64,000 bases of DNA from Azolla caroliniana (GCA_043228905.1 JBHGNT010000013.1:11718001-11782000); one strand, 5' to 3'; counted from the first letter of the stretch, positions 6,870 to 43,062 are shown. Notes: generated by a model from the letters alone, not told the origin. Made by a program: numbers and translations.

Positions 6870-6871
6870 AC

Positions 6872-7004: not shown

Positions 7005-7046
<42 letters not shown>

Positions 7047-11079: not shown

Positions 11080-11413
11080 CCGTGTGCACAAAACCATGGT
11101 TTTAGCCCATGGTTTTGTGCATGTCACAAGCATGGAAAGACCTATAAAAGCCTCTAGTTGGGCTTGTGTAAGGGGGGCTCACTATGTGATATCACCAACA
11201 CCACTATCATCAATATAATTATATTTGTCTTTATCTTCTTCATATTTTTCTATTTCTCAAGTGTACAATCTTTCTTCTTCTCAAGTGAACAAATTTCATC
11301 CAATCTTACATTGATCGTCATCTCTTCGATAATTCCGCGAACGTCCTCCTCAGTCCAAGACCCCGGTGGTCGCTCGAGGAGCACACGCACGCGCGAATCT
11401 TCGCGACAACATT

Positions 11414-11431
11414 TGGTGAACCCGACGTGAA
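11414..11431 (+). promoter_or_regulatory. PBS complementary to tRNA-Trp
   Basis: TGGTGAACCCGACGTGAA, identical at 24306 and 26352. Complement of the plant tRNA-Trp 3' end (from memory). Confidence 0.85.
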
Positions 11432-11452
11432 GAGTAGCAGGGGAGGACGAAG

Positions 11453-13105
11453 ATGGATGGCGAATATCTTATGGAGGCAATGTCAAAAAGGATGATGGAG
11501 TTTCTGAGAGAAGGGAAAAGAAGAAATGATGCCCAACAAGCCGTCGATAGGGTAGTCGAGCGAGTGAGCTATTTCAACGGCGCTGAAGTCCAAAGTTTTC
11601 TAAAAGTCTACAATGTGGAGATGGATTCAAGAGGTGTGGACGAAGCTATGAGGCTGGAGTACTTTTGTCGGGTGGTGTCTCAACCAATCTTCAAAGATGT
11701 AAAAGAGCTTCTAGAAGCTCATGATAGGTGGGCGACTTTCAAGAAGGCTCTATTGGAGGAATATGGCTATGAGAGACAAAAAGGACGAGATCGACGCAAC
11801 TTCGACCAATGGGTGACATCGGCGAAGACCCACCAAGGCGCGACACAAGCATTCGTAGACTTCGAGCATCGTTTTTCTCAATTGTTGGAGCGGGAACAAA
11901 GATTGGTGGGGGTCGATAAGGTCCTTATGTTCGTGAAGTCAATTGATCGAATGGAAAGGATGGCCATCGGCCTCAAACTCGAAGAAGATGATGGTGCAAA
12001 TGGCCTCATCGAGGATTGGAGCAAAGTGGAAAGTGTATGCCGACTACATGATAAGGGGCGAGCGAGAATATCGACGACAACAAGATGGCCCATGAGGGAT
12101 GATCGAAGAGGGGCGAGATGCAACAACGCGCCACCAACAACAGAAATAAAGCTTAAAAGGGAGACAAAACCGAGGCGAATGGTGATCGAGGAAGAAGAGA
12201 CCTCCCAACAAATGCAGGTTAATGAACTGGCCGATACAAAGGCTCAGGTTCGGTATGACGGTACCAAGAGAGAAGGTGCGAAACAAGTCACCTTCTTGTC
12301 TTACAAAGAAACGACGGCCAAGGACGAGGCCGATGATTCGAGGACGGAGAATGCCACTTCGAGGGAGGATAAATGTTTCGGAACACGCATTGTGTACGAA
12401 ACATCGGGTGATGAAGGTGCAAGCATGAGAAAAGCTTGCATGATCGAGGGAGATAAAGTGTTTGGGTCCGACGTGATTGAGGAGGTAGCCATGACAAACG
12501 ACATCGAGTCGGAGGTGTCTATGGACGAGTCGACGACGGATAGCCATGTCGACACTTTCTTCACGCTTGTTCCAGAGACTTCGGCGGTTGCGCCCATGTG
12601 CCAATGTGAGACCGGAGAGACAGAAGGTGGTGACGGGAAGAAGAAGGCCCAACACGAGGAGGAAGAAGATCGAGGACGAAAGGATATCCCCACACCTATT
12701 CTAGAGACTTCGGCGGTTGTGCACATGCGCCAACGTGAGACCGGAGAGACGGAATGTGTCGACGAAAAAGCGGAGGAGCGGAAGGGAGATGAGGAAGACA
12801 AGGTAAATGTGCATGAGTGAAGGGATTCCTTCACACCGGTTCCGGAGACTTCGGCAGTCGAGACCGTGTGTCGACATAAGACCGAAGATAAAGGAGGTGG
12901 CGAAGAGGAGTCAATATGGCTCGAGGCAAGCATACACAGAGGGAAGGATATGGCCAACGAGGAGGCCAAGGATGAAACCGCGGTTGAGTTCGATGGAGAG
13001 GCTGCATGCGGGAAGGAAGGAAGAGTCGAGAACCGGTCGAACCGGAAGACGATCCGGCCGGGATTCCGGCCTGAGCGAAGGAAGATCCACATGGGAGGCG
13101 ATTGA
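11453..13105 (+). pseudogene. gag: Gag capsid-like N-terminus fused to an acidic repetitive tail, with one in-frame TGA at 12818-12820
   Basis: N-terminus aligns with the G/H gag (F.G..V.S.L..Y..EM; D..L.FVKS.D). Three T.V/I.ETSAV repeats. ORF 12866-13105 is in the same frame. Confidence 0.7.
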
Positions 13106-14624
13106 CAGGGGCCGACTCGGCTGAAACCTGATTTGGCGAAAATCGATCGGACGATTCCGATCCAAAAGGGGGCCGACCTAGCCAGAATCAGTCGGTCGAG
13201 CCCGACTCGGGAAAATGCGAATGCAAACGAAGGCCAACCGAGCCAAGAAGTGATTGGCGGAGACCGATCCGGACAAGGTTAAACCCGGCATAATCGGAGA
13301 TGGACACGAACGATCCACAACACCTAGTTGAAGACGGTGAGCGTGAGGAGTGGCCAGGAATCCAATCGAAGGACACGCACGGTGGACGAAGGAAGAGCGG
13401 TCGGATCCATGACATCGTTCAGTAGATCTACTACAACCGATCGGGGAAGGTGTGAGCGCCGGATATGGTGGATCGGATGGCCACGGTGGTTCAGTTGGAA
13501 AGATTACGCATATTCGAAGTGGAAGACAAAGTCTGACGAGGTTGACGAGCGTGCAGAGGAACTTGGTTGATCACCGTTGCCAAAGATCTCACCTCTTCAC
13601 CTTTCTCGGCACATACCAGAGGATGTGCGGGTTTGGTGGGGGTGGATGTCGTGACGATTTTCGGCTACGGTGTGAAACCGAGTGAGACGAATAAACCAAG
13701 GATGTGCAACATTGCACATGCACTTAGCAAATAAACCTAAGGCCTAGTGGCACTTGAGTTCATACAGAGGGGCGCAAGTAAGGGTTGAACCTTGCACCTC
13801 TAAGATACAAGACAATTGCCTTACCACTAGGACAACTATCATATAGTGTAAATTTTATGTATTTACTTTTCATATATGAATTATAGATGAAACAACCATT
13901 AGAAAACCATGTGCACAAAACCATGGTTCTAAACCCATGGTTTGTGCATGACATAAGCAAAACCGTGTGCACAAAACCATGGTTTTAGCCCATGGTTTTG
14001 TGCATGTCACAAGCATGGAAAGACCTATAAAAGCCTCTAGTTGGGCTTGTGTAAGGGGGGCTCAATATGTGATATCACCAACACCACTATCATCAATATA
14101 ATTATATTTGTCTTTATCTTCTTCGTATTTTTCTATTTCTCAAGTGTACAATCTTTCTTCTTCTCAAGTGAACAAATTTCATCCAATCTTACATTGATCG
14201 TCATCTCTTCTATAATTCCGCGAACGTCCTCCTTAGTCCAAGACCCCGGTGGTCGCTCGAGTAGCAGACGCACGCGCGAATCTTCGCGACAACGTGGAAA
14301 ACCCAAATATGGGAAAAACCACAGCAGCCCTCAGACTGCAAAATATCACTATGTAAAGTAATACAACAATGGGGCACAAAGGCAACGACCTCTTGCTCCC
14401 TCGCTTTGCCACCAGGCGGTTACAATAGAGGCAACAACCTCTGTATATCGCTCTCGCTACCTCTCTTACTTACGCACTGTACAGAGGTTACCCCAATAAC
14501 TCTATCATCCTAATCATCAGGTTGCCCTAGGTCATATTTATATTAATATGACTTTCGGGCTATTTACAAATATAGCCCCAGTGGGCTCTCTGGAACATAT
14601 TTACATATATGTCCCTTCCATCCG

Positions 14625-19627: not shown

Positions 19628-21790
19628 AACCACATGGCGCAGAGCCTTTCCGAGGTAGTAGCGCACCAGTCCAAAATGACGGAGATCAGATTAACCTTGG
19701 ATGGGAGAGCGGTGTTTTGGCATTCGTAGGTGGATCTGCTAGCAATCACGACCTTCGACCAGTTGCAGTCAGCCTTTCTGCGGTTTTTTCATCGGAGGGT
19801 GCCGCAACGTGAAATCCTCGGGCAGTTTTACACAATTAAATAGTTGTTGACCGAGATGGTCGCGGATTTCAACTGACGTTTCCAAAATCTACGGCGGAAA
19901 TTAGAACGGGGCCCGACGAAGGATGAGGCTAGGGAGACATTTCTGGCAGCATTATGCCGACCCATATGGACAACGCTCAATAACAATAGCGTGAAAAGGG
20001 AAATGACCGATATGGTCATAGAAAGAGCGCTATATCTCGAACTGGACGAAGAAGAGGAAAGGTTTTCCATGTCCTCATTACGACAAGCGTTACCTCAGGA
20101 CGAAGAACAACATTTTCATCAAGCGATCCAGTGCACGATTTGCTTGAATTCGGGCCATTCCGTAGTTGAATGCAACATGCGAATCCACTGTCCAATCTGT
20201 CACTTGAAAGCTCACACAGTTGAGCAGTGCGAGTACAATATGTTGAATAGAGCCATGCCCACAGTACGCAACGTGGACACACAACGTCCCCCACGCCGTA
20301 ATGAACAAAGGCGGCAGGAAGACCGACCATGGTATATGGATCACAATCCACGCGATGACCGGCACTACCGGAATCGCCGGAATCACAACGATTCTGAGGA
20401 AGACAAGCCGAAGGATGAAGACTATTGTGGCAACCCCATAAATACTAAAGGGGGCCGACGCTATGAGAATTAACATCCGGAACAAACGTGGCGGCTTCAA
20501 TGGGCCTCATGGAAAGCATCGGCAATATCAGGACCAATGGTGGTACAATGAAAGTTCGGACGATGATTGGCACCATGAACCACGTCGGGACCAACAACAA
20601 CCACTGCGTACGCTCCGACGTACGAATCAGGACCGGGAGGAGCAAGTCACACCTGGGGATTGGCACACACCACCAAGGGCCGAGAAGGGAGAATCTAGCA
20701 TCCATTGTTTTGTTTGTCAACAATCCGGACATTATGCCGCACAATGCCCAGTACGCAAGGGCAAGGGGCCTGCCATCAATACGATTACGGTGGAGTACAA
20801 CAAGTCACAACACGTTAGCAAACAAAAACTGCTGATTGGGCCACGCAAGATGAGATACGGCGGACAGCCCAAGCATGGGTTGAAAAAGCAAATGCGACAA
20901 ATACGGAGTGCATGCGGAAGGAATCCGCAAACACAGTGGAGCTATTGGAGGACGAGGAACCATCCCTGGACCCCATATGGCAAGTACGGACAGGATGCGA
21001 GATAACGTTAACAACCATGGAGAAGCTGCTGCAACTAGTCCCACGATTCCGCCAAGCCGTGGAAGAGCGGGTGACGGGTAGACCTGGGGTAAGCGTCGCC
21101 GCGAATTTTACGGACATTAGCGACAGACCAACAGTAGTGGATCACCACAACCCGACTATTAAGTTGATATTACACGGTCAGGAAATCCCAGGATGTGTAA
21201 TCGATGGCGGCTCGGGCGTTAATGTAATTAGTGCGAAGACATGCGAACAATTGGGAGTTTCAGAATGGGAAGCTTGCCCGTTCTGGCTCCCTTTGGCGAA
21301 TACCCGCTCAGTACGACCATTGGGGCTGATACACAAGGTAGGTTTTATCGTGAGAGGACATCGCTTCGACATCTCCGCGGTAGTCCTCGCCCTTGACGCC
21401 CCAGGGGCGTATCCTATGCTGCTGGGCCGACCGTGGCTTCATTCAACGAATATCAAACAGAGCTGGCAACTCAAGTGTATCAGCTTTCGACGCGGACGCA
21501 CCAAGGTTCGCGTACCAATAGAGGAAATGGCGACACAACCCAAGGGCATAACACCATTCTATGCAGACGATATAAATATGCTGGCTGGGGTGGATGATAC
21601 AGAATTAGAGGTATACCTAGACGAGCACCCTCGGATTATTCCACTGTTCGAAATTGACGTCATCAAAACCGTGACGGAATATGCCACGCCCGCTACACTC
21701 CACGACGAGGCTTACGAACCAAACCCGAAGTCAATATTAGAACTAAGTAGAGCACGGGCAACGTTTGAGAGGGAAATGGAAATTTCACAG
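19628..21790 (+). pseudogene. Element F, 5' part: degenerate non-chromovirus gypsy gag-protease
   Basis: Three CCHC knuckles (CTIC..SGH....C, CPIC...AH....C, CFVCQQSGH....C), IDGGSGVN protease, LLGRPWL. Frame resumes at 40201. Confidence 0.85.
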
Positions 21791-21883
21791 TGTCGTGGAG
21801 AAAACCGTCCCTAGGCGGAAACTGGGTATAACGTGCGTAAACCGGCCCTTACACGGGGGCACAAGTTTTGTTGTATAGTACGT

Positions 21884-22970
21884 TGTCGTGTGGTTTTCAC
21901 ACACAAGATGAAAACTAGTAAAATAATTATTTAAGATTAGCTTAATGTATTCATATAGATAGGTATCTTCAAGAGTTTCATAGCGTATTTTATTATGCAT
22001 GAAACGGATAAACAAGTATCAAGCTATGTGAGTGTAAAGTTTGGAGAAGAAGAAAGAAAAGACAAAACTGTGAGATATCCCACATAGATAAGACAACATT
22101 GGAACCCAGGATATATAAGGGAAACCAAAACATATTCATTCTATCAATGTATGGAACACAGAATGTTCAAGGTGACTTGGGCTACATTGTGTGGTGTGCA
22201 CGCTTCGGGCATACGCGCGTATGCACGGTCGTGATTATGCTTCGGGCATACACGCGTATGCATGGCCGTGATTACGCTTCGGGCGTATGTGCGTATGCAC
22301 GGTCATGTTAACGCTTCGGGCGTATGCGTGTAGGTGCGTATGCACGGTCGTGTTAAGGCTTCGGGCGTGTATGCGTGTGTGCATGGCCACGTGGACGTCT
22401 TCGGATGTACATGCGTGTGCAAGTTTCGCGCGTACGCGTGCAAGGTTGCATGGACGTTTCAGACGCGCGCAAGCGTGGATGCGTACATTGCGGCATGGTC
22501 GGGACTTTTGCGTGCGGACGAGCGCGCGGATGCGTACACGATGCGGTCGGGACGTGCGCATGCATGGATGCGTACACTACGTGGTCGAGACTTTTGTGCG
22601 TGGACGCGTCTACGGTTTGGTTGCGACGCACGTACGGATTGCGCACGGGCTAAACTTTATGGATGATTGGGTCATTTGGCTGAATTATACGGACAATCGC
22701 ATGCAACCAAAAGCCAAGGCCATGCAACTAAAAGTAAAAGGATGCATCTAAAAATGGAAGCATGCAATTAAAAGTAGAGGCCATCCAACTAAAAGTGAGC
22801 ATGCAAAGTAAAAATCGATTTTCTTTTGCAAATAAACTAATGATTTGTCTCTCCCACTTGTGTTATGCTTAAAACTTGCTTGTGTTGTACATGTTGCTCT
22901 AAATCCTTCTAGTCCAGAACCCTCGCGGTTCCGTCTCACGATCCGCACATAGTGACGGATTTTCATGATA
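21884..22970 (+). mobile_element. Element I: solo LTR inserted in the 5' LTR of G
   Basis: TGTCG start, ...CATGA(T/C)A end, exact 4-bp TSD ACGT. The empty site is visible in the 3' LTR of G (tagtACGTagatag). Confidence 0.8.
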
Positions 22971-23807
22971 ACGTAGATAGGTACAAGTCGGTTGAGGTGA
23001 AATCCTAGGTAGCAGGCATTCATTAAGGAGAAAATCGCTTCGGGCGTATGCGCGTATGTGCGTATGCACGGTCATGTTAACGCTTCGGGCGTATGCGTGT
23101 AGGTGCGTATACACGGTCGTGTTAAGGCTTCGGGCGTGTATGCATGGCCACGTGGACGTCTTCGGATGTACATGCGTGTGCAAGTTTCGGGCGTACGCGT
23201 GCACGGTTGTATGGACGTTTCAGACGCGCGCAAGCGTGGATGCGTGGATGCGTACATTGCGGCATGGTCGGGACTTTTGCGTGCTGACGAGCGCGCGGAT
23301 GCGTACACGACGCGGTCGGGACGTGCGCATGCATGGATGCGTACACTACGCGGTCGAGACTTTTGTGCGCGGATGCGTCTACGGATTGGTTGCGACGCAC
23401 GTACGGATTGCGCACGGGCTAAACTTTATGGATGATTGGGTCATTTGGCTGAATTATACGGACAATCGCATGCAACCAAAAGCCAAGGCCATGCAACTAA
23501 AAGTAAAAGGCAGGCATCTAAAAATGGAAGCATGCAACTAAAAGTAGAGGCCATCCAACTAAAAGTGGGCATGCAAAGTAAAAATCGATTTTCTTTTGCA
23601 AATAAACTAATGATTTGTCTCTCCCACTTGTGTTATGCTTAAAACTTGCTTGTGTTGTACATGTTGCTCTAAATCCTTCTAGTCCAGAACCCCCGCGGTT
23701 CCGTCTCACGATCCGCACATAGTGATGGATTTTCATGACAACGTAGATAGGTACAAGTCGGTTGAGGTGAAATCCTAGGTAGCAGGCATTCATTAAGGAG
23801 AAAATCG
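22277..23807. repeat. ~765-bp tandem duplication spanning the I/G junction
   Basis: 22277-23037 is repeated at 23038-23807, with CG microhomology at the join. Confidence 0.88.
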
Positions 23808-24346
23808 AGGCGTATCCCTGTCCGAAAGGACAGGGAATAAACATGATGTAATGGGTGGTAATGGCCTCCCTCCTTGGGCTATAAAAGAGAGGGAGAGGTA
23901 TGGGGAAAAGGGGGATCGCGCTTTGTAGAGGACGAAGTGCTGCTGGATTGGAACCGAGCTCTTCTCCTCTGTCTTCTCCATAGTCGTTCTATGCAGGTTT
24001 TCAGGAGGCCGACTTTGCTCCGCGGAACGCCCGAATGCTTCCGGAAGAGCCTCCATCTCGCGTTCTGTGTGTATGTGCAAGCGTCGGAGCCTATCACTTG
24101 CCGACTTGCCGGTTGTAACTCGGTTTATATATACATATACATTCGTTCTATCTCCATTGTTCAACTCCTGTGAATCTGTGTGTCTGTGTGTGTGTGAAGC
24201 ACATTGGTGGTTTCCTTCCCCTCTTCTCATTCGGTTATTCCTTGGTCGAAGGCCCCCGTGGTCCCGCCTCGTTCTCCATGCACGCGCGTAACTATGCGAC
24301 ATAATTGGTGAACCCGACGTGAAATAGGCGGCAGAGGAATAGAAAG

Positions 24347-26239: not shown

Positions 26240-26272
<33 letters not shown>

Positions 26273-26390
26273 TTCCTCACCTATTCCTCGGTCCAAGACC
26301 CTAGTGGTCCCGCCTTGTTCTCCACGCACGCGCGTAACAACGCGACATATTTGGTGAACCCGACGTGAACAGGTGGCAGAGGAGTAGAAG

Positions 26391-27002: not shown

Positions 27003-30000
27003 TGTAAGGAATCGACCCTTCGATTCACCTTCACCACTCGGCCACAACCGAGTAATCGCGGATCAATGCAGCAGAAAATAGGAACCAAATGGAGAAACAA
27101 AACGCGAACACAAGGATTAACGTGGAAAACCCTAGATGGGAAAAACCACGGGAGTACAAGACTCCAAACCAACACTATACAAAAGAAGTATACAGTGGCG
27201 AGCTGCAAGGCGACGACCTTGAGCTCGCTGTCCTCGCCACAGGCGGCGGAAGTACACAGAGGCGTCGACCTCTTCCTCTCTCTCTCTCTCGCGATCTATC
27301 TCTCTCTCTCTCGGCTGCTCTCTCTCTTCACTCCTCTAGAGTGGAAAAACAGAAAAATGAATAGCAACGACAAAACTGTTTGCCCTAAGTCATATTTATA
27401 CACATATGACTTTAGGGCTATTTACAACTATGGCCTCAGGGGCCCTTAGTAGACATATTCACGGATATGTCCCTGCATTCAGATCTCTCTCCGGGTACAT
27501 TCGTCATCCGACTCAGAAGTCGGGATCTTCATCATCCGGTTCCGAAACCGAAACCGGGCTGGTCGGCATTCATCTCCGATATCCGACCATCCCATCCGAA
27601 GGGACCGTAATCCCAACAAACTCCCCCTTCACTTCGGCATGGGATGTCTTTCCAATCCGATCCTCTTCCTGCATGCTTCCAGCTTGTCGGGTGTAAGCAC
27701 CTTGGTCAGCATATCCGACCCGTTCTCGTCCGTGTGGATCTTCGTCAGCACGAACTCCTTGTCTTCTATCCTTTCCCGGATCCAGTGATATCTTCGCTGG
27801 ATGTGCTTCGTCCGGGAGTGATAGGCCGCGTTCTTCGCAAGGTGGATTGCGCTCTGACTGTCGCAGTAGAGTCGGTACTCCTCCTGTCGGATACCGAGCT
27901 CTCTAATGAAGTCCTTCATCCATATCATTTCCTTGCCGGCTTCAACAGCCGCCATGTACTCCGCCTCCGTGGTTGACAACGCAACCGTCTTCTGCAGCCT
28001 CGACTGCCATGAAACAGCTCCACCTGCATACGTCATCACATACCCTGATGTGGACCGGCTGGTATCTGCATCAGCCGACATATCCGAATCGGTGAAGCCG
28101 TCGAGTTCGGGCTTACCGGAGCCGAATCGGAGGCACACGTTTGCCGTGCCCTTCAGGTATCGGAGTATCCACTTGGCCGCGTTCCAATGCTCTTTGCCGG
28201 GATTGCTCATGTACCGGCTCACCACTCCGACTGCATATCCGATGTCCGGTCTCGTACACACCATGGCGTACATCAAGCTCCCGACGGCTGAGGCATACGG
28301 CACTTTCATCATATCCTCCTTTTCAGCCTTTGTCTTGGGACTTTGTTTGCTGGACAGCTTGCAGTTTGCCGGGAGGGTCGATCCGACCGGTCTTGCTTCC
28401 GACATGTTGAACCGGAGAAGCACCTTCGTCACGTACTTCTCCTGTGACAGCCACAACAGCTTCTTCTTTCGGTCCCGGATGATGTGCATCCCTAGTATTT
28501 GTCTCGCCGAACCCAGGTCCTTCATTGAGAAGGTTCGGTGAAGAGCCTTCTTCAGCATCCGTATCTTGACCTGGTCCCGTCCGACGATCAACATGTCGTC
28601 CACGTACAGGAGGAGTATTAGAAAGTCTCCTCCTTCGAACTTCTTCACAAACACGCAGTGGTCGGACTGCGTTTTGAGATACCCTTCGTCGGTCATGAAG
28701 GAGTCGAACTTCCGGTACCATTGCCGGGGAGCCTGCTTCAGTCCGTAAAGGCTCTTCTTCAGCCGGCATACCAGGTGCTCCTTCCCTTTCTTCTCGTATC
28801 CTTCCGGTTGCTGCATGTAGATCTCTTCATTGAGGTCACCGTGAAGGAATGCCGTCTTCACGTCCATCTGTTCTATCTCGAGGTCCATGCTTGCCGCTAT
28901 GCTCAGCACCGTCCGGATGGAGGTCATCTTCACTACCGGGGCAAATATCTCGTCGAAGTCAACGCCCTTCTTCTGCTGAAACCCCTTCACCACGATCCTG
29001 GCTTTGTATCTCGGGGGGTTTCCGACATCTCCCGGTTTCAGCTTGAACACCCACTTGTTACGGAGTGCCCGTTTTCCTTTCGGCAGCTCCACAAGTTCAT
29101 ATGTGTGGTTCTCATGCAGGGAATCCATCTCGTCCTGCATGGCACTCAACCACCTGCGGCTCCGGGGGGCCCTTCTCTCCCTTAGAGGATATCTCCGTTC
29201 CGGAGCTTCGGTAACCGGTTCTTCCGATTCTTCTTCATCCGAATCCATTTCGGGATCGGGGCCGGTTCCGGTATCATTTTCATCTTCTTCGGCCGGTTCT
29301 GTTTCTTCACCGTCTTCGGCCGGATCCTCGAGTGCTAACCGGTCCCTTGCCGGTCGGGACTGCTCCTCGTAGAGTTGATCCTCACCGGTCGACTTGGAGC
29401 TCTTCATCTTCTTCTCCGACTCCAAGTCGGCGAGTGTCTTGTCCTCCATGAAGATGATGTCTCGACTCCTGAATATCTTCTTGTCGACCGGGTCCCATAC
29501 TCGGTAGCCGAACTCGTCGTTGCCGTAACCGAGGAATATGCATGGCCGGGTCTTTGGATCTAGCTTTCCTCTCCGGTCCTTTGCCACATGCACGTATGCG
29601 AGACACCCGAACACCTTCAGATGCCGGTAGGATACTTCCCTACCGGTCCACACTCTCTGCGGCGTGTCTCCGTCCAAAGGTACTGAGGGTGATCGGTTTA
29701 TCACATATGTCGCCGTCGACATTGCCTCAGCCCAAAACCCCTTGGGTAATTTCGCATGTGCCAGCATACTCCGGACCCTCTCCATTATGGTCCAGTTCAT
29801 CCTCTCGGCCAGCCCGTTCAGTTCCGGCGTCTTCGGCACAGTAAACTCGAGCCGGATTCCCTTCGAGCGACAGTACTCCTGGAACTGTCCCCGGTATTCC
29901 CCTCCGTTATCCGCTCGTATCGCTTTCAGCTTCTTGCCGGATTCTCTTTCCACTCTCGCGTGGAGTTCTTTGAAGACGGACAACACTTGGTCCTTTGTCT

Positions 30001-32184
30001 TCATCGGTGCCGTCCACAGTCTTCGGCTATGATCATCTATGAATGTTACGAAGTACTGGGCTCCGCCATGGGACTTCGTTTCTACCTGACACACATCGGT
30101 GTGCACCAACTCCAGTGGTGCGCTACGTCTCGTCGGTGGCCTTGAGTGGAAGGAGGCTCGGTTCTGCTTACCGGCCAGGCAATCGGTGCACTTCTCCAGG
30201 TGCACATGCTTCACTGGAATGAGGTTGTCTTCTGCAAGCCTCTTCATCCCCTTCTCACTCATGTGGCACAGTCTCTTGTGCCACAGCTCACCGGCAGTGT
30301 CGGCTGCCACGTTCAGCTCTTCCGGACATAACCGGGCATTCATCAGGTACAGTGTGTTGACTTTCCGAGCCCGAGCCACTATCAGGCTCCCCTTGCTGAA
30401 CTTCATTACGCCGTTCCGGATGCTACCTGTGTAGCCTTCATCGTCTAGCCTCCCGGCCGAAATCAGGTTCAATCGAACCTCCGGAACGTGTCGGACATCC
30501 TTCAGCAGCATTTTGCATCCGGTCGGGGTTGTCAACCACACGTCTCCGATGCCGGCAATCCGGCACGTACCTTCATTTCCCATCCGAACACAGCCATGCT
30601 CACCGGCTGTGTAGGATGAGAAGTATCTTCTCTCCGGGGTCAGGTGGAACGATGCTCCGGAATCGACCACCCAGGTCATCTCATCGCCGGCAACGTTTAG
30701 TTCACCTTCTTCGGTGATGAGCATGATTTCTTCCTCACTTGCCGCGAGTGCCGTTGTTCCTTTCCGGTCCTGCCCTCGCCGATCCGAACCTCTCCGGTCC
30801 GTGGCTCCCCGGTATGCACCGTTTCTCTCCGGTGACTTCTTCGAATCGGTGTCGTCGGCTCCGTTGTCTTTTCGGTAATGCCGACAATTCTTTCGGAAGT
30901 GCCCCGGCTTCCCACAGTGGAAGCATGTGGGCCTTCCTCTTGACTGCGACCGGGTCCCCGACTTCTCCCGTCTCTGCGGACTCCGGTTCCATTGTCTTCC
31001 TCGATCCGATTCGGTAAGTAGCGCCTTCGGGTCGGAGGCCGGTTCTTTATCTCTCCGACGCGCTTCTTCGTTCAAAATACTTGTCTTTACCGTTTGCAAG
31101 GACAAGTTATCTTCTGTGCAGGAGGTGCTGAGAGTCACCACCAAGTTCTCCCAGCTTTCCGGCAATGTGCACATCAGGATGATGGCTTGCATTGCATCCT
31201 CCAACGGGAACTTGATCGCCGCAAGCTGAGATTCACTATCTTCCTCATCAGGGAGGTCCGGTTCAACGCATTCTTCCTCTCGTAGAGGCCCGACAGCTTC
31301 TTCCACATCTCATATGCGTTGGTGTCGTTCGCCACATGTTGTAGGACGCTTACATCGACATATTGTCGGATCGTCGCTACGGCTTTCCGGTTCAGGAGCT
31401 TCCACTCCGACTCAAGTACCCCTTTCGGTATTTCCGACCTGTCAATCGGTTCGTACAGGTCCCGAACAATCAGAAGATCCTCCATCTTGATCTTCCAGTC
31501 GGCGTAATTCTGCGCATTCAGCACCATCATCCCCGGCTGCCCGCTGCCGCCGCCTTCCATTTTCTGCAACAATCGCTCTGATACCAGTTTGTAAGGAATC
31601 GACCCTTCGATTCACCTTCACCACTCGGCCACAACCGAGTAATCGCGGATCAATGCAGCAGAAAATAGGAACCAAATGGAGAAACAAAACGCGAACACAA
31701 GGATTAACGTGGAAAACCCTAGATGGGAAAAACCACGGGAGTACAAGACTCCAAACCAACACTATACAAAAGAAGTATACAGTGGCGAGCTGCAAGGCGA
31801 CGACCTTGAGCTCGCTGTCCTCGCCACAGGCGGCGGAAGTACACAGAGGCGTCGACCTCTTCCTCTCTCTCTCTCTCGCGATCTATCTCTCTCTCTCTCG
31901 GCTGCTCTCTCTCTTCACTCCTCTAGAGTGGAAAAACAGAAAAATGAATAGCAACGACAAAACTGTTTGCCCTAAGTCATATTTATACACATATGACTTT
32001 AGGGCTATTTACAACTATGGCCTCAGGGGCCCTTAGTAGACATATTCACGGATATGTCCCTGCATTCGGATCTCTCTCCGGGTACATTCGTCATCCGACT
32101 CAGAAGTCGGGGTCTTCATCATCCGGTTCCGAAACCGAAACCGGGCTGGTCGGCATTCATCTCCGATATCCGACCATCCCAACA
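27003..32184 (-). mobile_element. Element K: young Ty1/copia (Tnt1-like)
   Basis: LTRs 27003-27618 and 31590-32184 (2 substitutions seen plus a 21-bp indel). TSD GAAGA, PPT 27619-27628, tRNA-iMet PBS 31574-31586. Confidence 0.96.
27629..31560 (-). CDS. pol: Copia gag-pol of K: pol open for ~1200 aa, gag frameshifted by a short deletion near 31230
   Basis: CFHCGKPGH...C, VDSGASFH, WHKRLCH..C..C, DDE integrase, YVDD, TDSD RNase H. The gag N-terminus (31174-31572 ORF) is in another frame. Confidence 0.9.
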
Positions 32185-32369
32185 GAAGATATACACACAC
32201 TACACAGGAGGTTTACGTGGAAAACCCCAAACTAGGGGAAAAACCATGGCAGTCCACAGGCTGCAAACTGTCGGTATGTAAGGATGTACAAAACAATGAG
32301 TCCACGGAGGCAACGACCTCGTGCTCACGATCTTCGCCACAGGCGACGGTTACAACAGAGGCAACAACC

Positions 32370-32413
<44 letters not shown>

Positions 32414-32850
32414 CAGTTACACATACTGATTTCGTGCAAGACAGAAATTGACAACAACTACTAACTATTAGTTTGCCCTAAGTCATATTTATACTAATAT
32501 GACTTTCCGGCTATTTACAAATATAGCCACAATGGGCTCTCAGAAACATATTTACGAATATGTCTCTTCCTCCGGTTCACACCGGGTCTGCACCATCCGG
32601 CTCTCCGGGACCGGGTACTCCTCATCCGGTTCATACCGGGCCTGCACCATCCGGCTCTTCGGAACCGGGTACTCCTCATCCGGTTCATACCGGGCCTGCA
32701 CCATCCGGCTCTCCGTAACCGGGTACTCTTCATCCGGTTAATACTGGGCCTGCACCATCCGGCTCTCCGGAACCGGGTACTCCTCATACCGAGTTTGTTC
32801 GTCGGCACTGTTCTTCTCCCTTCCCATCCGGAGGGACCTGTCTCCCAACA

Positions 32851-34419
32851 AGTTCGACCGGGATCGGATGGGTTGTCAACCAAGAGGACGAGGACGACAT
32901 GCGTTCCCCGATCCGGTTCGGCGCAAAGGTCCTCAGCGAGCGACAACAAGGATACGCCCAGGTTAAACGCGAGCTCTGGGGTATCATGTCGGCGGTAAAG
33001 GCCAATAAAGACTACCTGATCGGGACAAAGGTAATTATCGAGACAGACTGCTTGCCGATCCTTGGCATGGTTTCCGGATGCGTGACGCCGGACCTGGCAA
33101 TGCTCAGGTGGATAGCATACATCAAGTCCCTGAATCCGGAAATACGACACATTTCCGGGAAAGACAACGCCATGGCCGACATGCTTTCAAGGGCGAGGTT
33201 CGAAAACGACGGCGGCATGGTTTCAGAGGACGAGGAAGTCAACGTGGACTTCTTCGAGGCAGCTTACGTAACAACCGGTAGGGAATGCTCTCCAACGCTT
33301 AACGATTTCGACGGGAGCAAGTACGACAGGGAGTGGCTGCAGATCGGCGGGTTCCTGAAAACAATGACACCGGACGCGGCTTGGACAACGGACGAGGCCA
33401 ACCGGATTTGGAAGAAAGCCTACTGATTCTTTCTCCGAGACAGATACATATGGAAGCACCCGAAGAAGAGGAACGACATCCCGCTCCGAGTGGTGGCGAA
33501 GAAGGAGGAGCAGGAGGATTTGCTGGCGGCGTACCACGATAGCCCGTGGGCTGGACACCGTGGAACGTGGGCCACGTTCGAAAAGCTAAAGGAGAAGTAC
33601 TGGTGGCCGGGACTATACCGGGACGTGCATCAGTGCGTGACGACTTGCGAAACCTGTCAGGTGCACTCCATGATCCGACATCGGGACGAGCTTCACCCGA
33701 CCTACCCTCCGACCGTCCACTTCAAGTGGATGGTGGATTTGGTGACGATGCCAATGGGGGTAGGACAGATGCGGTATCTGGTGCTAGCTCGGGAAGATCT
33801 AATGAACCAGGTTGAAGGCCGAGGGGACTGGCCACGACTGCTACCTTATGCCTTGTGGGCGGACCGGACTACGCACAGTTCGGTAACCGGGTTCATGCCG
33901 GCCGAGCTTATGTTCGAGCAGAAGCCAATCATGCCAACAGAGCAAACGATCTCCTCGTGGGCCACGGTGGACTGGAGGGATAAGATGAGCCGGGAGGAAC
34001 TGTTGGCGACGCGGATTCGACAGCTCGAGCGGAGGCCGGAGGACGTAGAGCGAGCCGCGGAGAAACTTCGGGTAGCGAGGATAAGGAACAAAGCCCGGTT
34101 CGACTGAACACACCGGTTCAGGCCAAGGAAGATCGAGGAAGGCGACTGGGTGCTAGTCTACGACAGCAGCCTCGACAATCAGCACAGGGCCAAGCGGAAG
34201 TTTGCGAGGAGGTGGTTCGGGCCTTACGTAGTAACAGGCGCCAACGGCAATGGGACGTACCATCTCGCGGAGCTCGACGGTATGAGAATGGTAATACCGG
34301 TAGTGGGGAAGAGGATCAAAGCGTTCAAGAAACGGCACGACGGGGAGCCGGAGCTAGGGGGCATGGACAGCGACGACGAGCAGCCCGAGGCGGAGGATGA
34401 GTCGGTAAACGAGGAATAA
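32851..34419 (+). pseudogene. pol: RNase H-integrase remnant of H
   Basis: Collinear with G 37655-39473, except for a ~255-bp deletion of the integrase core at ~33822. Confidence 0.85.
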
Positions 34420-35075
34420 AGCAAGGATCGGTTCTCTCCTGTAGGAACCCAATTTTGGCGCATACCGGTGGATGCGCGGTTAGGTGGGGGCAGATGTCAT
34501 GAAAAAAACCGTCCCCAGGCGCAAACCGTGTATAGTGTGTGTGAATTGGCCCTTACACGTGGGCACGTCCCTTATCGTATAGTAGATAGGTAGGCACAAA
34601 GGTTAAATCCTAGGTAGCAATATTCTATAAGGGAAATCGAGGAGTATCTCTCAGAGAATTAATGTGATGTAAACGGGTGCAATGGCCTCCCTCCTTGAGC
34701 TATAAAAGAGAGGGAGACGGGGGAGCGAAGATATCGCGTGTTAGAAGGAACGAAGTGCTGTCGGATTGGGACTGAGCTCTTCTTCTCTGTCGTTCTCCAT
34801 AGCTTTCTTTGCGCAGGTTCTCAGGAGGCTGATTCTGCTCCGTGGAACGCCCGTGTGCTTCCGGCAGAATCTCCATCTTGCTCTCCTGTGTGCGTGGGTG
34901 ATCAGGCATCGGCATCCACCTCGCCGACCTGGTCGGCTGTAACCGTTTGAGTCGTCTGCATACATACAAATACATGCCTATATTTACATACATACTCTAG
35001 TGTTCTCAACTCGCGTCTCCTGTGTTGTTGTGTCGCGTCCCCGTGCGCTTCTTTGTCTATAAGTGAGTGAGCATT

Positions 35076-35110
<35 letters not shown>

Positions 35111-35187
35111 TTTTCCTCACCTATTCCTCGGTCCAAGACCCTAGTGGTCCCGCCTTGTTCTCCACGCACGCGCGTAACAACGCGACA

Positions 35188-35989
35188 ACGGTATGAAACC
35201 CGGTTCGGGCCAAAGCAGAATGATGTCGGTGCATCCGGCGCACCGGACAAGGCCAAGATGGCCGGTTATCGATTGAGCAAAGAGATCAAAAGGACCATGG
35301 ACCTACGAAAGGTCCTGGAGGAACGGATCCTCGACAGCAAAGTGGAGCAGTCGCTGAGGGAAATGCTCGGTATCTCCAAGAAGGAGTTCCACGACTCCAT
35401 CGTAGACTTGGTGAAGCGGAAAAGGCTTTTGACGGTGCCAGAGCCAGAGAAGCCGGTGGAGGTGCGAAAAACGCACTTAGAAGACATGGCCCTGGAGGAC
35501 GAATTGGTGGAAATCCACTACTCAAGGTTACATTGGGCTAGGGCCACTACGGAAACCCTTGTTCGGATCGGGGACATCCAGGAGCTGGTGGTGGCGTTGG
35601 TAGACGACGGTTTGGAGATCAACTTGATGTCCATGGACTTCTACAAGAAGGGAAAGTGGCCGATCAACACCAAGCACGGGTGGAAGATACGGGCAACAAC
35701 GCGCACCACGGAGGAGCTACATGGAGCCTACCCGAATGTACGAGTGAAAATCGGCGATGTCGAGATCGATCAACACTTCTTCGTGTAGGAGATGTCCTCG
35801 CATCCGGTGATACTCGAAGAACCGTACGTCATGGCGGCACGCATGGAGACAAAGGTGCTGGACAACGGTTTGGCACATGCACAAGTCAAGAGCCAGGATG
35901 GGCGCCACTTGGTCCAGTTCCTGACAATGCGACCGAACCATGAGCGTAACCGCGAGACCCTCGGTGGCGAAAACCGAGGGGATTTTTAG
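35188..35989 (+). pseudogene. gag C-terminus and protease of G
   Basis: ALVDDGLEINLM protease-like motif and HPVIL..PY. Ends ...RGDF* at a slippery heptamer. Confidence 0.78.
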
Positions 35990-38900
35990 AGAGGGCTATC
36001 AAGGCATGGGGCCGCAATAGTCCGGACACCCCGGAAAAACCCCATAGATGTACTATAGGCAAAAAGACTTGTACCATAGGTAGGAACTTTTGGTTCTCCG
36101 ATAGCAGAGGTTGTACGATAGCCGGCGTAGTTGGCCGGGAAAAGAAGCGGGCGGAGGAGCGACTTCAGGCATGCGGAGTCCTCGGCTCTGAAGAGGAAAT
36201 CAACGGAGCGGTGGAGGAAATCTCTTTCGACGACATCTTGGGGAAGTTACGGGAGGTGTTCAGAGAAGGCCTTAATGAGGACCGGACAATTCTGGTATGT
36301 TCGGAAAGGATGTACAAAGTCATCGCCAACTTCGGTAATGGGCTCGAGTCAGATCGGACGGCCCGAGTGGATACAAAGTACAAGATTGTGGACCGGAAGG
36401 TGAGGCCAGTCGCGGCACCCTTGCCGGAGGGTACTGAGTTACAGATAAAGGGGGTCGCGTCGGACCCAAGTTTATGAGATCTAGCCAGCATAGGAAACAT
36501 GTTCACCGACATAACGCTACGAGAGCTCAAGATCGGTGGGGGTGGCTTTCTACTGCCAACTGAAGAGGACCGGTTTCGGAGAATGCTCGGGAGGCACGGG
36601 AAGGCTTTCACATTCTCACCGGAGGAGATCAGGTGCATAGACCCGACGGTTGTAGAACCAATGGTGATCTTCACGGTACCGCATGTGCCGTGGAATCTCA
36701 AACCGATTCTGGTACCCAGAGCTCACATCCCGAAGCTGATGGAGCTATTGAAACGGAAGGTGGAAATGGGCATCCTCGAACCATCTAGCGCCCCATATTC
36801 AAATCGGTGGTTTACAATGCCAAAGAAGAACGACACACTACGCTTCATACAGGACCTGCAACCGGTCAACAAGGTGACCATTCGAAACGCAAGTATCAAA
36901 CTGACCATTGATGAGTTCGCGAAGGCCTTCGTAGGGAGGTCGATCTACTTAGTCAGGGATCTGTACTCAGGGTACGATCAGTTCCAACTAGCCATAGAGA
37001 GCAGGGATGTCACGACGATGCAGACTCCTCTCGGCCTAGTTCGGATGTGTACCTTACCGCAAGGGGAAACTAACTCGGTGGCGCACATGGTGAATGTGAT
37101 GAACAAGGTGTTGAAGGACTGCATCCCGGACATCACCATGCCGTTTCTGGACGATATCCCAATCAAAGGATGTCCGGTGGAGGCCAAGGATGAGTCGATC
37201 GGGCCCGATGGTTGCTGGAGGTTCGTGAAGGATCACATCCGCGACTGCGAGAAGGTGCTACAAAGACTCGGAAGAGCGCGACTCACCTTCTCTGCAGAAA
37301 AATCAGCCTTCGGACATCCTTCGATCTTGGTAGTCAGACACCTGTGCGGGCCTTATGGCCGGAAGCCGTCCCCGGCGAAGGTAGAAGCCATCTTCACGAT
37401 GGAGGATGATTGCGGGTTGGTCACGGAGGTCCGAAGGATCCTGGGGGCATGTGCGTTCTATCACATCTGGATTCTGCACTACGTGCATGTCATGGAACCG
37501 CTTTACGGGTTGCTAAAGAAAGGGCGTAAATTCGAGTAGAGAGACGAGCACACGGAGTCGGTCCGGAGACTGAAGGAGGCGCTCGCCGCGGCACCGACTC
37601 TCCGGAAATCGGTTTATGGCAAGGAAGTGCCCATTTACGTGACGGTGGACACGAGCCCCACCGGGATCGGGTGGTTGATCAATCAGGAAGATGAAGACGA
37701 CGTACGATTCCCGATCCGATTCGGGGCTAAGGTATTGAGCAAGCGACATCGAGGATACGCCCAAATCAAGCGCGAGCTATGGGATATCGTTTCGGCAGTC
37801 AAGGCCGACAAGGACTATCTCATCGGGACGGAAGTGATCATCGAGACGGACTACCTACCGATTCTGGGTATGGTTTCCGGATGCGCGACTCTAGACCTGG
37901 CGATGCTCAGGTGGATCGCGTACATCAAGTCCCTGAACCCGGAGATATGGCACATCTCCAGAAAGGATAACGCCATGGCCGATATGCTTTCAAGGGCGCG
38001 GTTCAGCAACGAGGACGGCATGGTTTCGGATAACGAAGAAGTCGGCGAGGACTTCTTCGGGTCAGCTAACGTAACAACAAGAAAGGGGGGCACTCCGGCG
38101 CTTAACGAATTCGACGAGAGCAAGTACGATGGGGAGTGGCTCCAGATCGGCGGGTTCCTGAAGACAATGACACCGGACGCGGCATGGACGAAGGAAGAGA
38201 TCAACCGGATTCGGAAGAAAGCGTATCAATTCTTCCTACGGGACGGGAGCATATGGAAGCACCCGAAGAAGAGAAACGACATCCCGCTCCGAGTGGTGGC
38301 GAGGAGAGAGGAACAGGAAGAATTACTGACGGCATACCACGAGAGTCCCTGGGCCGAACGCCGCGGGATGTGGGCCACATTCGAGAAGCTAAAAGGGAAG
38401 TACTGGTGGCCGGGGCTATACCGGGACGTGCATCGGTTCGTGACGACTTGCGAAAGCTGTCAAGTGCACTCCATAGTTTGACATCGAGACGAGCTTCACT
38501 CGACCTACCCTCCGACCATCCACTTCAAGTGGATGGTGGATCTGGTGATGATGCCGATGGCGGTAGGGCAGATGCGGTATCTGTGCTGGCTCGGGAGGAC
38601 TTGACGAACCAGGTGGAAGGTCGAGCGTTGCAGAACAAAACGACCACGGACGTGTGCTGATTTCTGATCGAAGAAGTGGTATGCTGGTACGGGTGCGTAG
38701 GTAAGATTGTGGCCGACCACGGAGAATTGGACGCGCAAGAGGCGGAAGAGTTGTTTGACCAGCTAGGGATTAAACTCTCACTCACCATTGCGTACAATCC
38801 GGAGGCTAACGGGAAGGTGGAGCGTGGACATGGGCCGATCATCAAAGTGTTAGTACGGGCATGTGGAGGCCAAGTCGAGAACTGGTCGTGGCTCTTACCC

Positions 38901-39473
38901 TATGCATTGTGGGCAGACCAAACCATGCATAGTTCGGTAACCGGGTTCATGCCTGCAGAGCTAACGTACGGGTAGAAGCCGATCATGCCAACGGAGTAGA
39001 CAATCTCCTCATGGGCCACGGTAGACTGGAAAGACGAGATGAGCCGGGAGGAGCTATTAGCGGCACGGATTCGGCAACTGGAGCGAAGACCGGAGGACGT
39101 GGACCGCGCCGCGGAGAAGCTACGGGTAGCGAGGGTAAAGAGCAAAGGACGGTTCGACCGGACTCACCGATTGAGACCGAAGAAGATCGAGGAAGGGGAC
39201 TGGATTTTAGTGTATGACAACAACCTCGACAACCAACACAGGGCAACGCGGAAGTTTGCAAGAAGGTGGTTCGGGCCTTATGTGGTGACAAGCGCCAACA
39301 ACAATGGGACCTACCATCTCGCGGAGCTCGACGAGATAAGGATGGCGGTACCGGTGGCGGGGAAAAGGATTAAAGCATTCAAAAAGCGGCACGAGGCTGA
39401 ACTAGACCTGGACGACCTGGATGACGACAACGGCCGGCTTGGAACAGATGTCGATCCGGAAGATGAAGGATAA
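35980..39473 (+). pseudogene. pol: RT-RNase H-integrase of G (-1 frame relative to gag-pro; stops and frameshifts)
   Basis: APYSNRWF..PKK..LRFIQDLQPVN, PFLDD, VDTS RNase H, YWWP..C..CQ, NGKVERGH, WFGPY. No chromodomain. Confidence 0.88.
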
Positions 39474-40200
39474 GCGTGGGCCGGTCTTCTCTGGCAAGAG
39501 TCTAATTTTGGCGCATACCGATGGATGTGCGGTTAGGTGGCGACGGATATCGTGGAGAAAATCGTCCCTTGGCGGAAACCGAGTATAACGTGTGTAAACC
39601 GGCCCTTACACGGAGGCACAAGTTTTGTTGTATAGTACGTAGATAGGTACAAGTCGGCTAAGGTGAAATCCTAGGTAGCAAGCATTCATTAGGGAGAAAA
39701 TCGAGGCGTATCCCGGTCCAAAAGGACAGGGAATAAACATGATGTAACGGGTGGTAACGGCTTCCCGCCTTGGGCTATAAAAGAGAGGGAGAGGTATGGG
39801 GAAAAGGGGGATCGCGCTTTGTAGAGGACGAAGTGTTGCCGGACTGGAACCAAGCTCTTCTCCTCTGTCTTCTCCATAGTCCTTCTGTGTAGGTTTTTGG
39901 GAGGCTGACTCTGCTCCGTGGAACGCCCAAGTGCTTCCGACAGAGCCTCCATTTCGCGTTCTGTGTGTCTATGCAGGCGTCGGAGCTTATCACTCACCGG
40001 CTTGCCGGTTGTAACTCCTCGGTTTATATATACATATACATTTGTTCTGTCTCCATTGTTCAACTCCTGTGAATTTGTGTGTCTGTGCGCGTGTGAAGCA
40101 CATCAGTGGTTTCCATCCCCTCTTCTCATTCGGTTATTCCTCGGTCCAAGGCCCCTGTGGTCCCGCCTCGTTCTCCACGCATGCGCGTAACTACGCGACA

Positions 40201-43062
40201 ATGGCAAGTCACCACCTCAGCCCTGGAAGAAGTAAACGTGGGTATGGTGTCAGAACCCCGTTTCCTCTCCATCGCAAAAGAATTAATGCCGGACCAGAGA
40301 AACGTGATGATAACACTACTCAAGAAGTATAAAGATGTGTTCTCTTGGGCCCAAGAGGACATGAAGGGGTTAGATCCGAAGTTCTATCAACATAAGATCA
40401 ATTTAGCAACCGACGCGAAACCGGTCCAGTAGCGTCGATACCGCATGAACCCAAACTACGCGGCCCGCGTAAAAGAAGAAATTGACAAACTCCTCAAGGC
40501 GGGATTCATACGGCCAGTTAAACAAGCTACATGGTTAACACCGATCATAGTCGTACCAAAGAAAAATGGCAAAATACGGGCATGCGTGGACTACCGAAAA
40601 TTAAACGTCGTAACCATTACAGACACATTCCCTTTACCTTTCACCAATAGCGTACTGGACATCGTCGCGGGGCATGCCATGTACAGTTTTTTAGATGGCT
40701 TCAGTGGGTACAACCAAGTACGCATGCACCCCGACAACCAAGAGAAGACGCGGTTGTCACGGACTGGGGAGTCTATGTTGCAGTCGTCATGATGTTTGGG
40801 GTAAAGACGGCGCCGACGACATTTCAACGGACAATCACGGAGATTTTTGGGAAATATATTCTGGCCTTCATGCAAGTTTTTTTGGACGATTTTGCAGTAT
40901 ATGGGAGAACAACCGACCATTTTACGCATCTACAACTGTGCCTGAAACGTTGCCGCACCGCACGCTTAAGCCTGAATCTTGCCAAATGTGCCTTCAGCGT
41001 TACCAGCGGGGCTCTCCTCGGCCATATAGTCAGCAAGGAAGGGATAGCGGTTGATCCGAATAAAATCTCCGCGATTACCCAAGCGAAAATGTCGACAAAC
41101 GTGAAATCACTCAACCATTTTTTAGGACACATACGATGGCACAGTCGGATGATACGCTATTTGGCGGACTTCGCCACGCCGTTACATGTCGTCGTTCATC
41201 GGACTCCCTTCCAAGGGACAGCTACGGAAGAAAAGGCATATGATGAGCTAAAGGTAATGCTAACGCAGGCACCTGTCGTACAGCCACCAGTTTGGACGAA
41301 GCCATTCCACGTGTTCGTAAATGCCTTTGACATAGCAATAGGTAGTGCGCTAATGCAGCTCACAGAGCCGAATTGGTACCGGCTGGGGTACTACGCTAGT
41401 CGTACATTATCAATGGCTGAGCGTAACTATTCCACAACGGAACGTGAGGCATTGGGGATGATCTACAACATCAATAAGTTCCGGCATTATCTTCTAGGGC
41501 GGAAATTCACGTTTCACATTCGGCACTGTTGTATCTGGTGGAGAAATAAGCGTTGATGAGGAAATTGGCGATATGGATGCTGTTGCTTCAAGAATTCGAC
41601 TTTATAATTCAGCACCGCCCGGGCACGCAACACGGAGTGGCAGATTTCTTGAGCAGACTCGATAATGGAGAAACGACACAGAGGGATGACGACGACTTTT
41701 CGGATGCAGACATTCTACGGGTAGCAACACTAGCAGAATGAATAGAAAAGATCTTCCCAGATCGATGGCTCATGGAAATGACCTACTTCCTGACCACGGG
41801 GTTACCGCCACCCCAATTACGGACGGATGAGAAAAACCAGTTGGCCGTCAAGAGTCGAAATTTTTGTTTAGTGGAAAACATACTATACCGCAAGGGCAGT
41901 GACGACATCTGGAGGCGCGGAATACGGTAGGATGAGAAGGCCGCGGTTCTACGTGAAGACCATTGTGGTACCGCAGGAGGACATTACGTGGGCGATGTTA
42001 CGGCCCGGAAAATTTGGCAAGCAGGACTGTGGTGGCCGACGATGCAAAAGGACGCATATGAATATTGCAGACAGTGTGATTTATGCCAACGACTGGGCCA
42101 ACCCACAGAAGTCGCAAGAATGCCACATCAACCAATGTTGCCACTAGATCCTTTCCAAAAGTGGGGGTTAGATTTCGTGGAACCTTTTACCCCGGCGGCC
42201 GCTCGAACAGGCAATAAGTACATCCTGGTGGCTACGGATTACTGCACCAAGTGGGTAGAAGCGAAACCACTACGCGAGAATATTGCGGCAGTCACGGCGA
42301 AATTCCTGTACGAACACATCTGGTGTCATTTCGGCTGCCCTACCGAGCTCATTAATGACCAAGGAAGTCACTTTCTGAATACGGTCATCAACGAACTTAC
42401 CCAACATTACGTGGTGGTGCACAAGAAAAATATGTCGTATTACCCGCAGGCAAATGGTTTGGCAGAATCGACGAACAAAACCGTCCAAACTATCCTAAAA
42501 AAGATAGTCAATGAGAACAGGACGGATTGGGACACCAAGTTGCATAGCGTGTTATGGGCATACCGTACCAGCTATAAGAGCAGCATACAATCAACACCGT
42601 TCAGGCTGGCATTTGGTCTGGAGGCCGTGATGCCAGTTGAATTCCAGGTACCTAGTCTACGAATTCAAATACGAGCCCAGCTACCAGAGGGCAAATCCGC
42701 ACAAATACGGCTACAGAGACTACTAGAGCTAGGAGAAACAAGGGTACGCAGTATGGCCATATTAGAGCAGGAACGGCGGCGGTGCAAAGCATTCGTTGAC
42801 CGACACCGACATGCGCGTGAAAAAGATTTTACGGTTGTAAAAGCGGTATTAGTTTTCCAATATGCCAAGAAAATTACGATTCCGCTGGACAGGCCCGTAC
42901 TGGATAGTAGGAGCAGAACAACGCACGTTTCAACTGGGCACGCTGGTCGGGGAAGTGTTACGACAGAAAGTGAATGGGTTTCGCCTTAAACCTTATTTGG
43001 GACCTACGCCACCTGACCCATTCCACGCCGGACAAGACAAAGCCGGAGAATCCGCGGAGTAA
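40201..43062 (+). pseudogene. pol: Element F: RT-RNase H-integrase (degenerate)
   Basis: VPKKNGKIR.CVDYR, FLDDF, ERNYSTTERE, WGLDF, QANGLAE, WTGPY. Confidence 0.9.

What the first reader, a model, noticed from the sequence alone, without database searches (positions are those of the whole stretch)
11080..40204. A gypsy clade that appears to integrate at CpG with 4-bp target duplications
All five insertions of the TGTC...GACA clade have CG at the centre of a 4-bp flank. I in G is ACGT/ACGT (21880-21883, 22971, 23741), and the empty site is preserved in G's other LTR. H in G is ATGG/ACGG (25651, 35188). G in F is ACAG/ATGG (21787, 40201), which is ACGG decayed on opposite strands and restores the F frame ATT TCA CGG CAA GTC. 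The right flank of C is ACGT (14292) and of D is CCGT (11080, reverse complement of ACGG). Elements B, K and L in the same window have ordinary 5-bp TSDs, and plant gypsy elements normally make 5-bp TSDs. The integrases of G and H lack a chromodomain. Inference: a sequence-level or methyl-CpG-level targeting mode that steers insertion into CpG-rich transposon DNA. CpG decay would hide these TSDs from standard LTR finders.
Basis: partly seen in the sequence, partly recalled or inferred. Interest (0 to 1): 0.82.

Follow-up and report, generated by a model that had tools for sequence, protein, structure and literature searches.

The report
Phygy-type retrotransposons inserting at CpG
The jumping genes nested here do insert at four-base sites centred on CG, but that habit is already published for the Phygy group of moss retrotransposons, to which they likely belong, and their integrase likely reads the DNA letters and bend rather than methyl marks.

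Summary
All five sites are CG-centred; three two-sided sites give exactly 4 bp against empty sites. In related metagenome loci, 22 of 25 LTR flanks have central CG (background 0.065, P about 1e-23).

It is not new: Neumann et al. 2019 list Phygy with 4-bp NCGN duplications in 100% of 186 elements. G, H and C likely belong to that lineage: 27 of 27 Physcomitrium proteins hit them and none hits the window's other gypsies; no chromodomain or aRH. REXdb itself was not testable.

Small addition: 21 of 22 CG sites are VCGB (background 0.48), the VYRB rule of 4-bp retroviral integrases; the closest solved fold is foamy-virus integrase. Sequence and bend readout is likely; methyl-CpG reading is untested and has no support here.

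Corrections: TGTC...GACA ends do not define the clade (the chromovirus at 1554-7336 has them, with a 5-bp duplication); 22971 and 23741 are one junction. The scan noted NCGN before in a fungal genome (e1-10582392).

The parts
21791..40200 (+). Element G, decayed Phygy-type Ty3/gypsy; 5' LTR 21791-24301 (split by I), 3' LTR 39548-40200; net length 7012 without nested I and H
   Evidence: LTR pieces 599 of 654 aligned bases identical
21787..21790 (+). Left target copy of G in F, ACAG (CG decayed to CA)
40201..40204 (+). Right target copy of G in F, ATGG (CG decayed to TG)
25655..35187 (+). Element H, Phygy-type, LTRs 25655-26347 and 34495-35187; RT region absent, copia DNA at about 26900-32850
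   Evidence: (LTRs 663 of 693)
25651..25654 (+). Left target copy of H in G, ATGG
35188..35191 (+). Right target copy of H in G, ACGG
21884..23740 (+). Element I, solo-LTR-like unit in G's 5' LTR, with a tandem duplication that repeats its 3' end and right flank
21880..21883 (+). Left target copy of I, ACGT
23741..23744 (+). Right target copy of I, ACGT (22971-22974 is its duplicate)
39637..39640 (+). Empty site of I in G's 3' LTR, ACGT
11080..14291 (+). Element C, short (gag-like ORF 11438-12820, no pol); 5' LTR cut at 11080, 3' LTR 13647-14291
14292..14295 (+). Right target copy of C in a copia LTR, ACGT
10687..11079 (+). Element D, 3' part of an LTR only
   Evidence: (81% to L038)
11080..11083 (+). 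Right target copy of D in C's 5' LTR, CCGT; empty site at 13963-13966
24306..24323 (+). Primer-binding site of G (same motif at 11414 in C and 26352 in H)
   Evidence: its complement is a CCA-ended plant small RNA; tRNA-Trp isotype recalled, not tested
35063..35962 (+). DUF4100 and protease region of G, 36-57% identical to Physcomitrium patens proteins
36478..39470 (+). RT, RNase H and integrase of G; stops and a frameshift near 38583; no chromodomain
1554..7336 (-). Control: chromovirus with chromodomain, TGTC...GACA ends and 5-bp duplication CTCGC

Best explanation
These are nested Ty3/gypsy retrotransposons with 4-bp CG-centred target duplications, likely of the Phygy lineage, and their integrase likely selects the site by reading DNA sequence and bend, without needing methylation. 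Shown: 4-bp stagger, central CG, avoidance of T at the first and A at the last position (VCGB), no chromodomain or methyl-reader domain, foamy-virus-like integrase fold. Inferred: a symmetric intasome kinks the target at the central pyrimidine-purine step, as foamy-virus integrase does, and added base contacts narrow YR to CG. A conserved Glu at the position of foamy-virus Ala188 and the long loop of the C-terminal SH3-like domain are candidate contacts (untested). Because CG density varies about tenfold, copies would tend to pile up in GC-rich repeats; later methylation and deamination would turn the duplications into TG or CA.
For: Phygy: 4 bp, 100%, NCGN, n=186. 27 of 27 P. patens proteins hit G/H/C, 0 of 27 hit the other window gypsies. 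RT-RH-INT 54-57% identical to the best Riccia polyproteins, which carry DUF4100; the quick tree nests G among them, far from the window's chromovirus. 22 of 25 flanks CG-centred, only at the right offset. 21 of 22 VCGB against 0.48 expected, P about 2e-6. Serrao 2015: 4-bp integrases favour central YR and disfavour T/A at 0/+3, largely independent of chromatin. Best solved relatives are PFV integrase structures. Glu in 96% of 72 sequences aligns with PFV Ala188. G's LTRs decay at CHG (12 of 32) as much as at CG (22 of 88), against 5 of 154 at CHH, yet targets are only CG-centred.
Against: Bendability alone does not explain it: CG is only 21-25% of VYRB sites, so an extra determinant is required and none is shown. 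PFV Ala188 contacts bases 3 positions outside the joining point, not the centre. No REXdb Phygy sequence could be compared (file too large), and no P. patens RT is in the tree. G (7012 bp) and L001 (about 7300 bp) are below the Phygy size range of 7656-9968. H's LTRs show little CHG decay (1 of 31). Nearly all CG in these repeats is probably methylated, so the flanks cannot separate CG from methyl-CG. The 25 flanks come from a dozen assemblies with related names, and two pairs flank single solo LTRs (L031, L018), so they are not all independent.
Confidence: 0.7

Rival explanations
1. The integrase needs or strongly prefers methylated CG, read inside the catalytic core or the SH3-like domain, which aims new copies at already silenced repeats.
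For: All five window sites lie inside other retrotransposons; CG decays faster than CHH in the LTR pairs, so the host likely methylates these repeats; the lineage has no chromodomain to reach heterochromatin; Phygy domains are reported as enriched in liverwort centromeres (passage).
Against: No MBD, SRA or chromo family in 24 of 24 proteins; the fold matches listed are all integrases; CHG appears methylated in G but is never the target centre. The window and the loci were picked as repeat-rich, so nesting is expected.
Confidence: 0.12
2. The elements form a sister lineage of Phygy, part of a wider CG-targeting clade that may include fungal elements; the mechanism would be the same sequence readout.
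For: Only 36-57% identity to P. patens proteins; size below the Phygy range; many unnamed relatives at 32-48%; an unchecked scan note reports NCGN duplications in a fungal genome; Ginger1 transposons make CCGG/CCGT duplications.
Against: Phygy is the only non-chromovirus clade that the passages read name for P. patens, and duplication length, motif and domain content agree. Phygy is already reported from a liverwort.
Confidence: 0.13
3. The CG-centred flanks are chance or a boundary artefact of CG-rich repeats.
For: The nest has 0.067 CG per position; two window cases are one-sided and two need decay to be read as CG.
Against: 22 of 25 outside flanks, with at most 2 at any other offset; empty sites fix the boundaries; the same trait is published.
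Confidence: 0.01

Closest known systems
Phygy clade, non-chromovirus Ty3/gypsy (Neumann et al. 2019, PMC6317226; passages and Additional file 5 read)
   Same: 4-bp NCGN duplication, no chromodomain, no aRH, no extra ORF, short element; proteins closest to P. patens among named mosses.
   Different: Described there as specific to P. patens; these copies are only 36-57% identical to P. patens proteins and somewhat shorter. The paper gives NCGN; here the outer bases are restricted to VCGB. It offers no mechanism in the passages read.
Prototype foamy virus intasome (Serrao et al. 2015, PMC4422553; passages read)
   Same: 4-bp stagger, central YR step, T/A avoided at the edges (VYRB); best structural match of the integrase.
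   Different: PFV has only a weak preference and takes any YR; here the centre is almost always CG. A works-like comparison, not membership.
Ginger1 DNA transposons (Bao et al. 2010, PMC2836005; passages read)
   Same: Gypsy-like integrase, 4-bp duplications CCGG (75%) or CCGT/ACGG (24%).
   Different: Cut-and-paste elements with inverted repeats, no RT. CCGG, their main target, is absent from the 22 sites here.
Tcn1-type chromoviruses such as RLG1 (PMC7466625; passages read)
   Same: Gypsy elements of non-seed plants that gather in repeat-rich DNA; one in this window has the same terminal four bases.
   Different: They carry a chromodomain and make 5-bp duplications without a fixed motif.

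Membership tests
Phygy | RT-RH-INT groups with REXdb Phygy sequences | not testable with these tools
   REXdb fasta too large to read. Indirect: 27 of 27 P. patens gag/protease-region proteins hit G/H/C and 0 of 27 the other gypsies; tree with Riccia relatives only.
Phygy | 4-bp target duplication | tested here: met
   3 of 3 two-sided sites, against empty sites.
Phygy | NCGN target motif | tested here: met
   5 of 5 window sites (two as decay pairs); 22 of 25 loci flanks.
Phygy | No chromodomain, no aRH, no extra domain | tested here: met
   G and H; 0 of 24 relatives carry one; one weak RVT_3 hit at E 0.047 overlaps the ordinary RNase H.
Phygy | Primer-binding site for tRNA-Trp (81% of Phygy) | tested here: inconclusive
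   A conserved PBS follows the 5' LTR of C, G and H and occurs 14 times in the loci; its complement is a CCA-ended small RNA. The Trp isotype is my recall; no tRNA gene was recovered (0 of 31 loci).
Phygy | Size 7656-9968 bp (descriptive; the paper calls size of little use for classification) | tested here: inconclusive
   G 7012 bp but decayed; intact relative L001 about 7300 bp.
Chromovirus (Tcn1 and others) | Chromodomain after integrase | tested here: not met
   Absent in G, H and 24 relatives; present in the control element.
OTA/Tat | Additional archaeal-type RNase H | tested here: not met
   No second RNase H family hit.
Selgy | tRNA-Ala PBS, about 5 kb, 4-bp duplication without motif | tested here: not met
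   Size 7.0-7.3 kb and fixed CG centre; PBS isotype not tested.
Ginger1 | Terminal inverted repeats, no RT | tested here: not met
   Direct LTRs and RT present.

The most novel reading that the evidence does not exclude
The Phygy-type integrase reads methyl-CpG directly in its core or SH3-like loop, with no accessory reader domain, and so aims new copies at silenced repeats; the same CG readout is shared by a plant-fungal gypsy clade and Ginger1 transposases.
Probability: 0.1. Interest if true: 0.75.

Novelty: new member of a known kind. Interest (0 to 1): 0.2.

Why it matters
The trait itself is in print, so the finding mainly confirms it in a host that is probably not P. patens. What stays useful: it is the one plant LTR lineage that Neumann et al. 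report with a target motif, the passages read give no mechanism, and the VCGB pattern plus a conserved Glu give a concrete test of how a weak YR preference becomes near-strict CG choice. For annotation, exact-TSD filters lose older copies (2 of 3 two-sided cases here). If methyl-CpG reading were shown, it would be a new route to heterochromatin without a chromodomain.

Tried and rejected
Genome-wide tally: no genome held; replaced by 80 of 108 metagenome loci and by contig loose ends, which give majority letters only, with agreement 0.42-0.55, and mix genomic flanks with PBS or PPT sequence (behind the LTR end the majority was the PBS in X1 and X4). Extended consensus beyond the 4 bp: nothing clear in 25 flanks; first outer base purine in 18 of 25. 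TGTC...GACA as a clade marker: rejected. Gypsy 7436-9676 as a 5-bp control: its two flanks do not pair, so it was not used. tRNA isotype: pattern scan of viral contigs gave 31 loci and no tRNA; a paper search did not link miR894 to tRNA-Trp. Ylt1: one paper not held, another has no mention. Atlas: generic retroelement clusters, no useful taxa. Cluster members gave no organism names. The careful tree did not finish; the quick tree has long-branch joins among distant rows. Paper searches for other LTR elements with CpG targeting returned nothing relevant, but subscription journals are not covered. Runs with word shares under 0.2 were not used, except X10, which was laid.

Full report
Anatomy. 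The window is a nest of LTR retrotransposons. F (gypsy) holds G (21791-40200); G holds I in its 5' LTR and H (25655-35187) in its gag-protease region; H holds copia DNA. Further left, C ends at 14291 inside a copia LTR, and D ends at 11079 inside C's 5' LTR. The left parts of C and D are missing. The host is inferred to be a non-seed land plant from named relatives in Riccia, Physcomitrium and Adiantum; the lineage was not determined, and no genome is held.

Observation. Empty sites fix the length at 4 bp for I (G's other LTR), H (three related loci; two more distant ones lack CG there) and G (other F copies in contigs). Other F copies and two of the three closest G relatives read ACGA at those sites, whereas both flanks of the copies that were hit end in G. 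C and D show one flank each, ACGT and CCGT, matching the empty site in the host's other LTR. The 22971 flank duplicates 23741. Three control elements have exact 5-bp duplications, one of them a chromovirus that also begins TGTC and ends GACA.

Test outside the window. A scan with an intact relative gave 108 metagenome stretches, of which 80 were kept. Profiles of LTR ends gave 68 hits in them; 42 were dropped by rule (22 next to the purine tract, 15 next to the primer site, 3 without terminus, 1 at a contig end, 1 reverse-strand echo) and 26 were kept, 25 distinct. 22 of 25 have CG at the centre, against 0.065 expected (P about 1e-23); no other offset exceeds 2. The misses are ACAT (fits decay) and two with a mutated terminus. 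Two pairs flank single solo LTRs, and the assemblies have related names, so independence is partial. In four sequencing runs from three coded organisms, the majority letters before the LTR start end in CCGT, CCGA, ACGT and ACGT (23, 15, 12 and 14 contigs; agreement 0.44-0.55).

What is known. Neumann et al. 2019 (PMC6317226, passages and Additional file 5) write that Phygy elements have an insertion preference for NCGN, unlike other plant lineages, and list 4 bp in 100% of 186 elements, tRNA-Trp priming in 81%, and no extra domain. Jedlicka et al. 2019 (PMC6911290, passages) also find 4-bp duplications most common in Phygy and GC-rich centres in 4-bp duplications. Phygy is reported in the liverwort Apopellia (PMC12885004, passages). 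Additional files 1 and 3 of Neumann et al. could not be read and hold the per-element TSDs and sequences, so the VCGB pattern may already be visible there.

Membership. A search seeded with a Riccia homologue returned 27 P. patens proteins among the best 120. All 27 hit G, H or C, best segments 36-57% identical, and none hits the other gypsies of the window. Since Phygy is the P. patens non-chromovirus clade in the passages read, membership is inferred at about 0.85. It is firmest for G and H, weaker for C (gag only), and rests on LTR likeness for I and D. Size is slightly under the published range. The primer site is conserved, and its complement appears in print as the CCA-ended small RNA miR894 mapped to gypsy repeats (PMC5846777, passages); that it is tRNA-Trp is my recall.

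Mechanism. Of the 22 CG-centred flanks, 21 avoid T first and A last (VCGB), against 0.48 of background NCGN (P about 2e-6). The one exception, TCGT, pairs with CCGT around one solo LTR and may be decayed. This is the VYRB pattern of foamy-virus integrase, which kinks its target at the central step and clashes with T at the joining point (PMC4422553, passages). The integrase of intact relative L001 folds with mean pLDDT 84.8, and its best matches are PFV intasome structures (E 7e-20; sequence E 2e-20). No chromo, MBD or SRA family appears in 24 of 24 proteins. Since CG is only 21-25% of VYRB sites, something must narrow the choice. A Glu kept in 96% of 72 sequences aligns with PFV Ala188, in a helix one residue shorter, but Ala188 contacts bases outside the duplication, so this is a lead only. 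LTR pairs decay at CG (H 13 of 97, G 22 of 88) more than at CHH (6 of 207, 5 of 154); CHG is mixed (G 12 of 32, H 1 of 31). Methylation thus explains the decayed flanks; nothing here shows that it guides insertion, and nothing excludes it.

Verdict. Real, already described for Phygy, with a modest refinement (VCGB) and a testable mechanism. The scan noted NCGN duplications before in a fungal genome and Phygy-like nests in this genome; those notes are unchecked and are not counted as support. Interest 0.2.

Noticed in passing
window 1554-7336 (-): Chromovirus with identical LTRs (464 of 464 aligned bases), two open frames and a chromodomain: a very young insertion.
   Followed up: partly
window 22283-23037 / 23052-23807: Tandem duplication of about 770 bp that copies the 3' end of I plus 67 bp of G's LTR.
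   Followed up: partly
window 34455-34494 and 39508-39547; about 20 loci: A conserved 40-base stretch precedes the 3' LTR; the purine run is short and broken by T and C, and a palindromic hexamer lies upstream of it.
   Followed up: no
25 flanks in L001-L080: In element orientation NCGC occurs 8 times and GCGN once (P 0.039, uncorrected), a possible asymmetry of target choice.
   Followed up: partly
window 11414, 24306, 26352: The primer site is complementary to the small RNA listed as miR894, which suggests that miR894 is a tRNA 3' fragment able to pair with these elements.
   Followed up: partly
window 1298-10686: The gypsy here has right flank GCGTG, matching the empty site in a D-like LTR (L038), but its left end does not pair with it; the left parts of D, C, E and F are absent, which suggests a deletion or recombination.
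   Followed up: partly
window 33799-33825: H's integrase lacks about 75 residues of the catalytic core relative to intact relatives.
   Followed up: no
L001:187-7491: Tandem array: LTR, internal region, LTR, then a second primer site and internal region.
   Followed up: no
window 47732-48526 (-): A 265-residue frame with no Pfam hit, in AT-rich DNA beside short tandem repeats.
   Followed up: no
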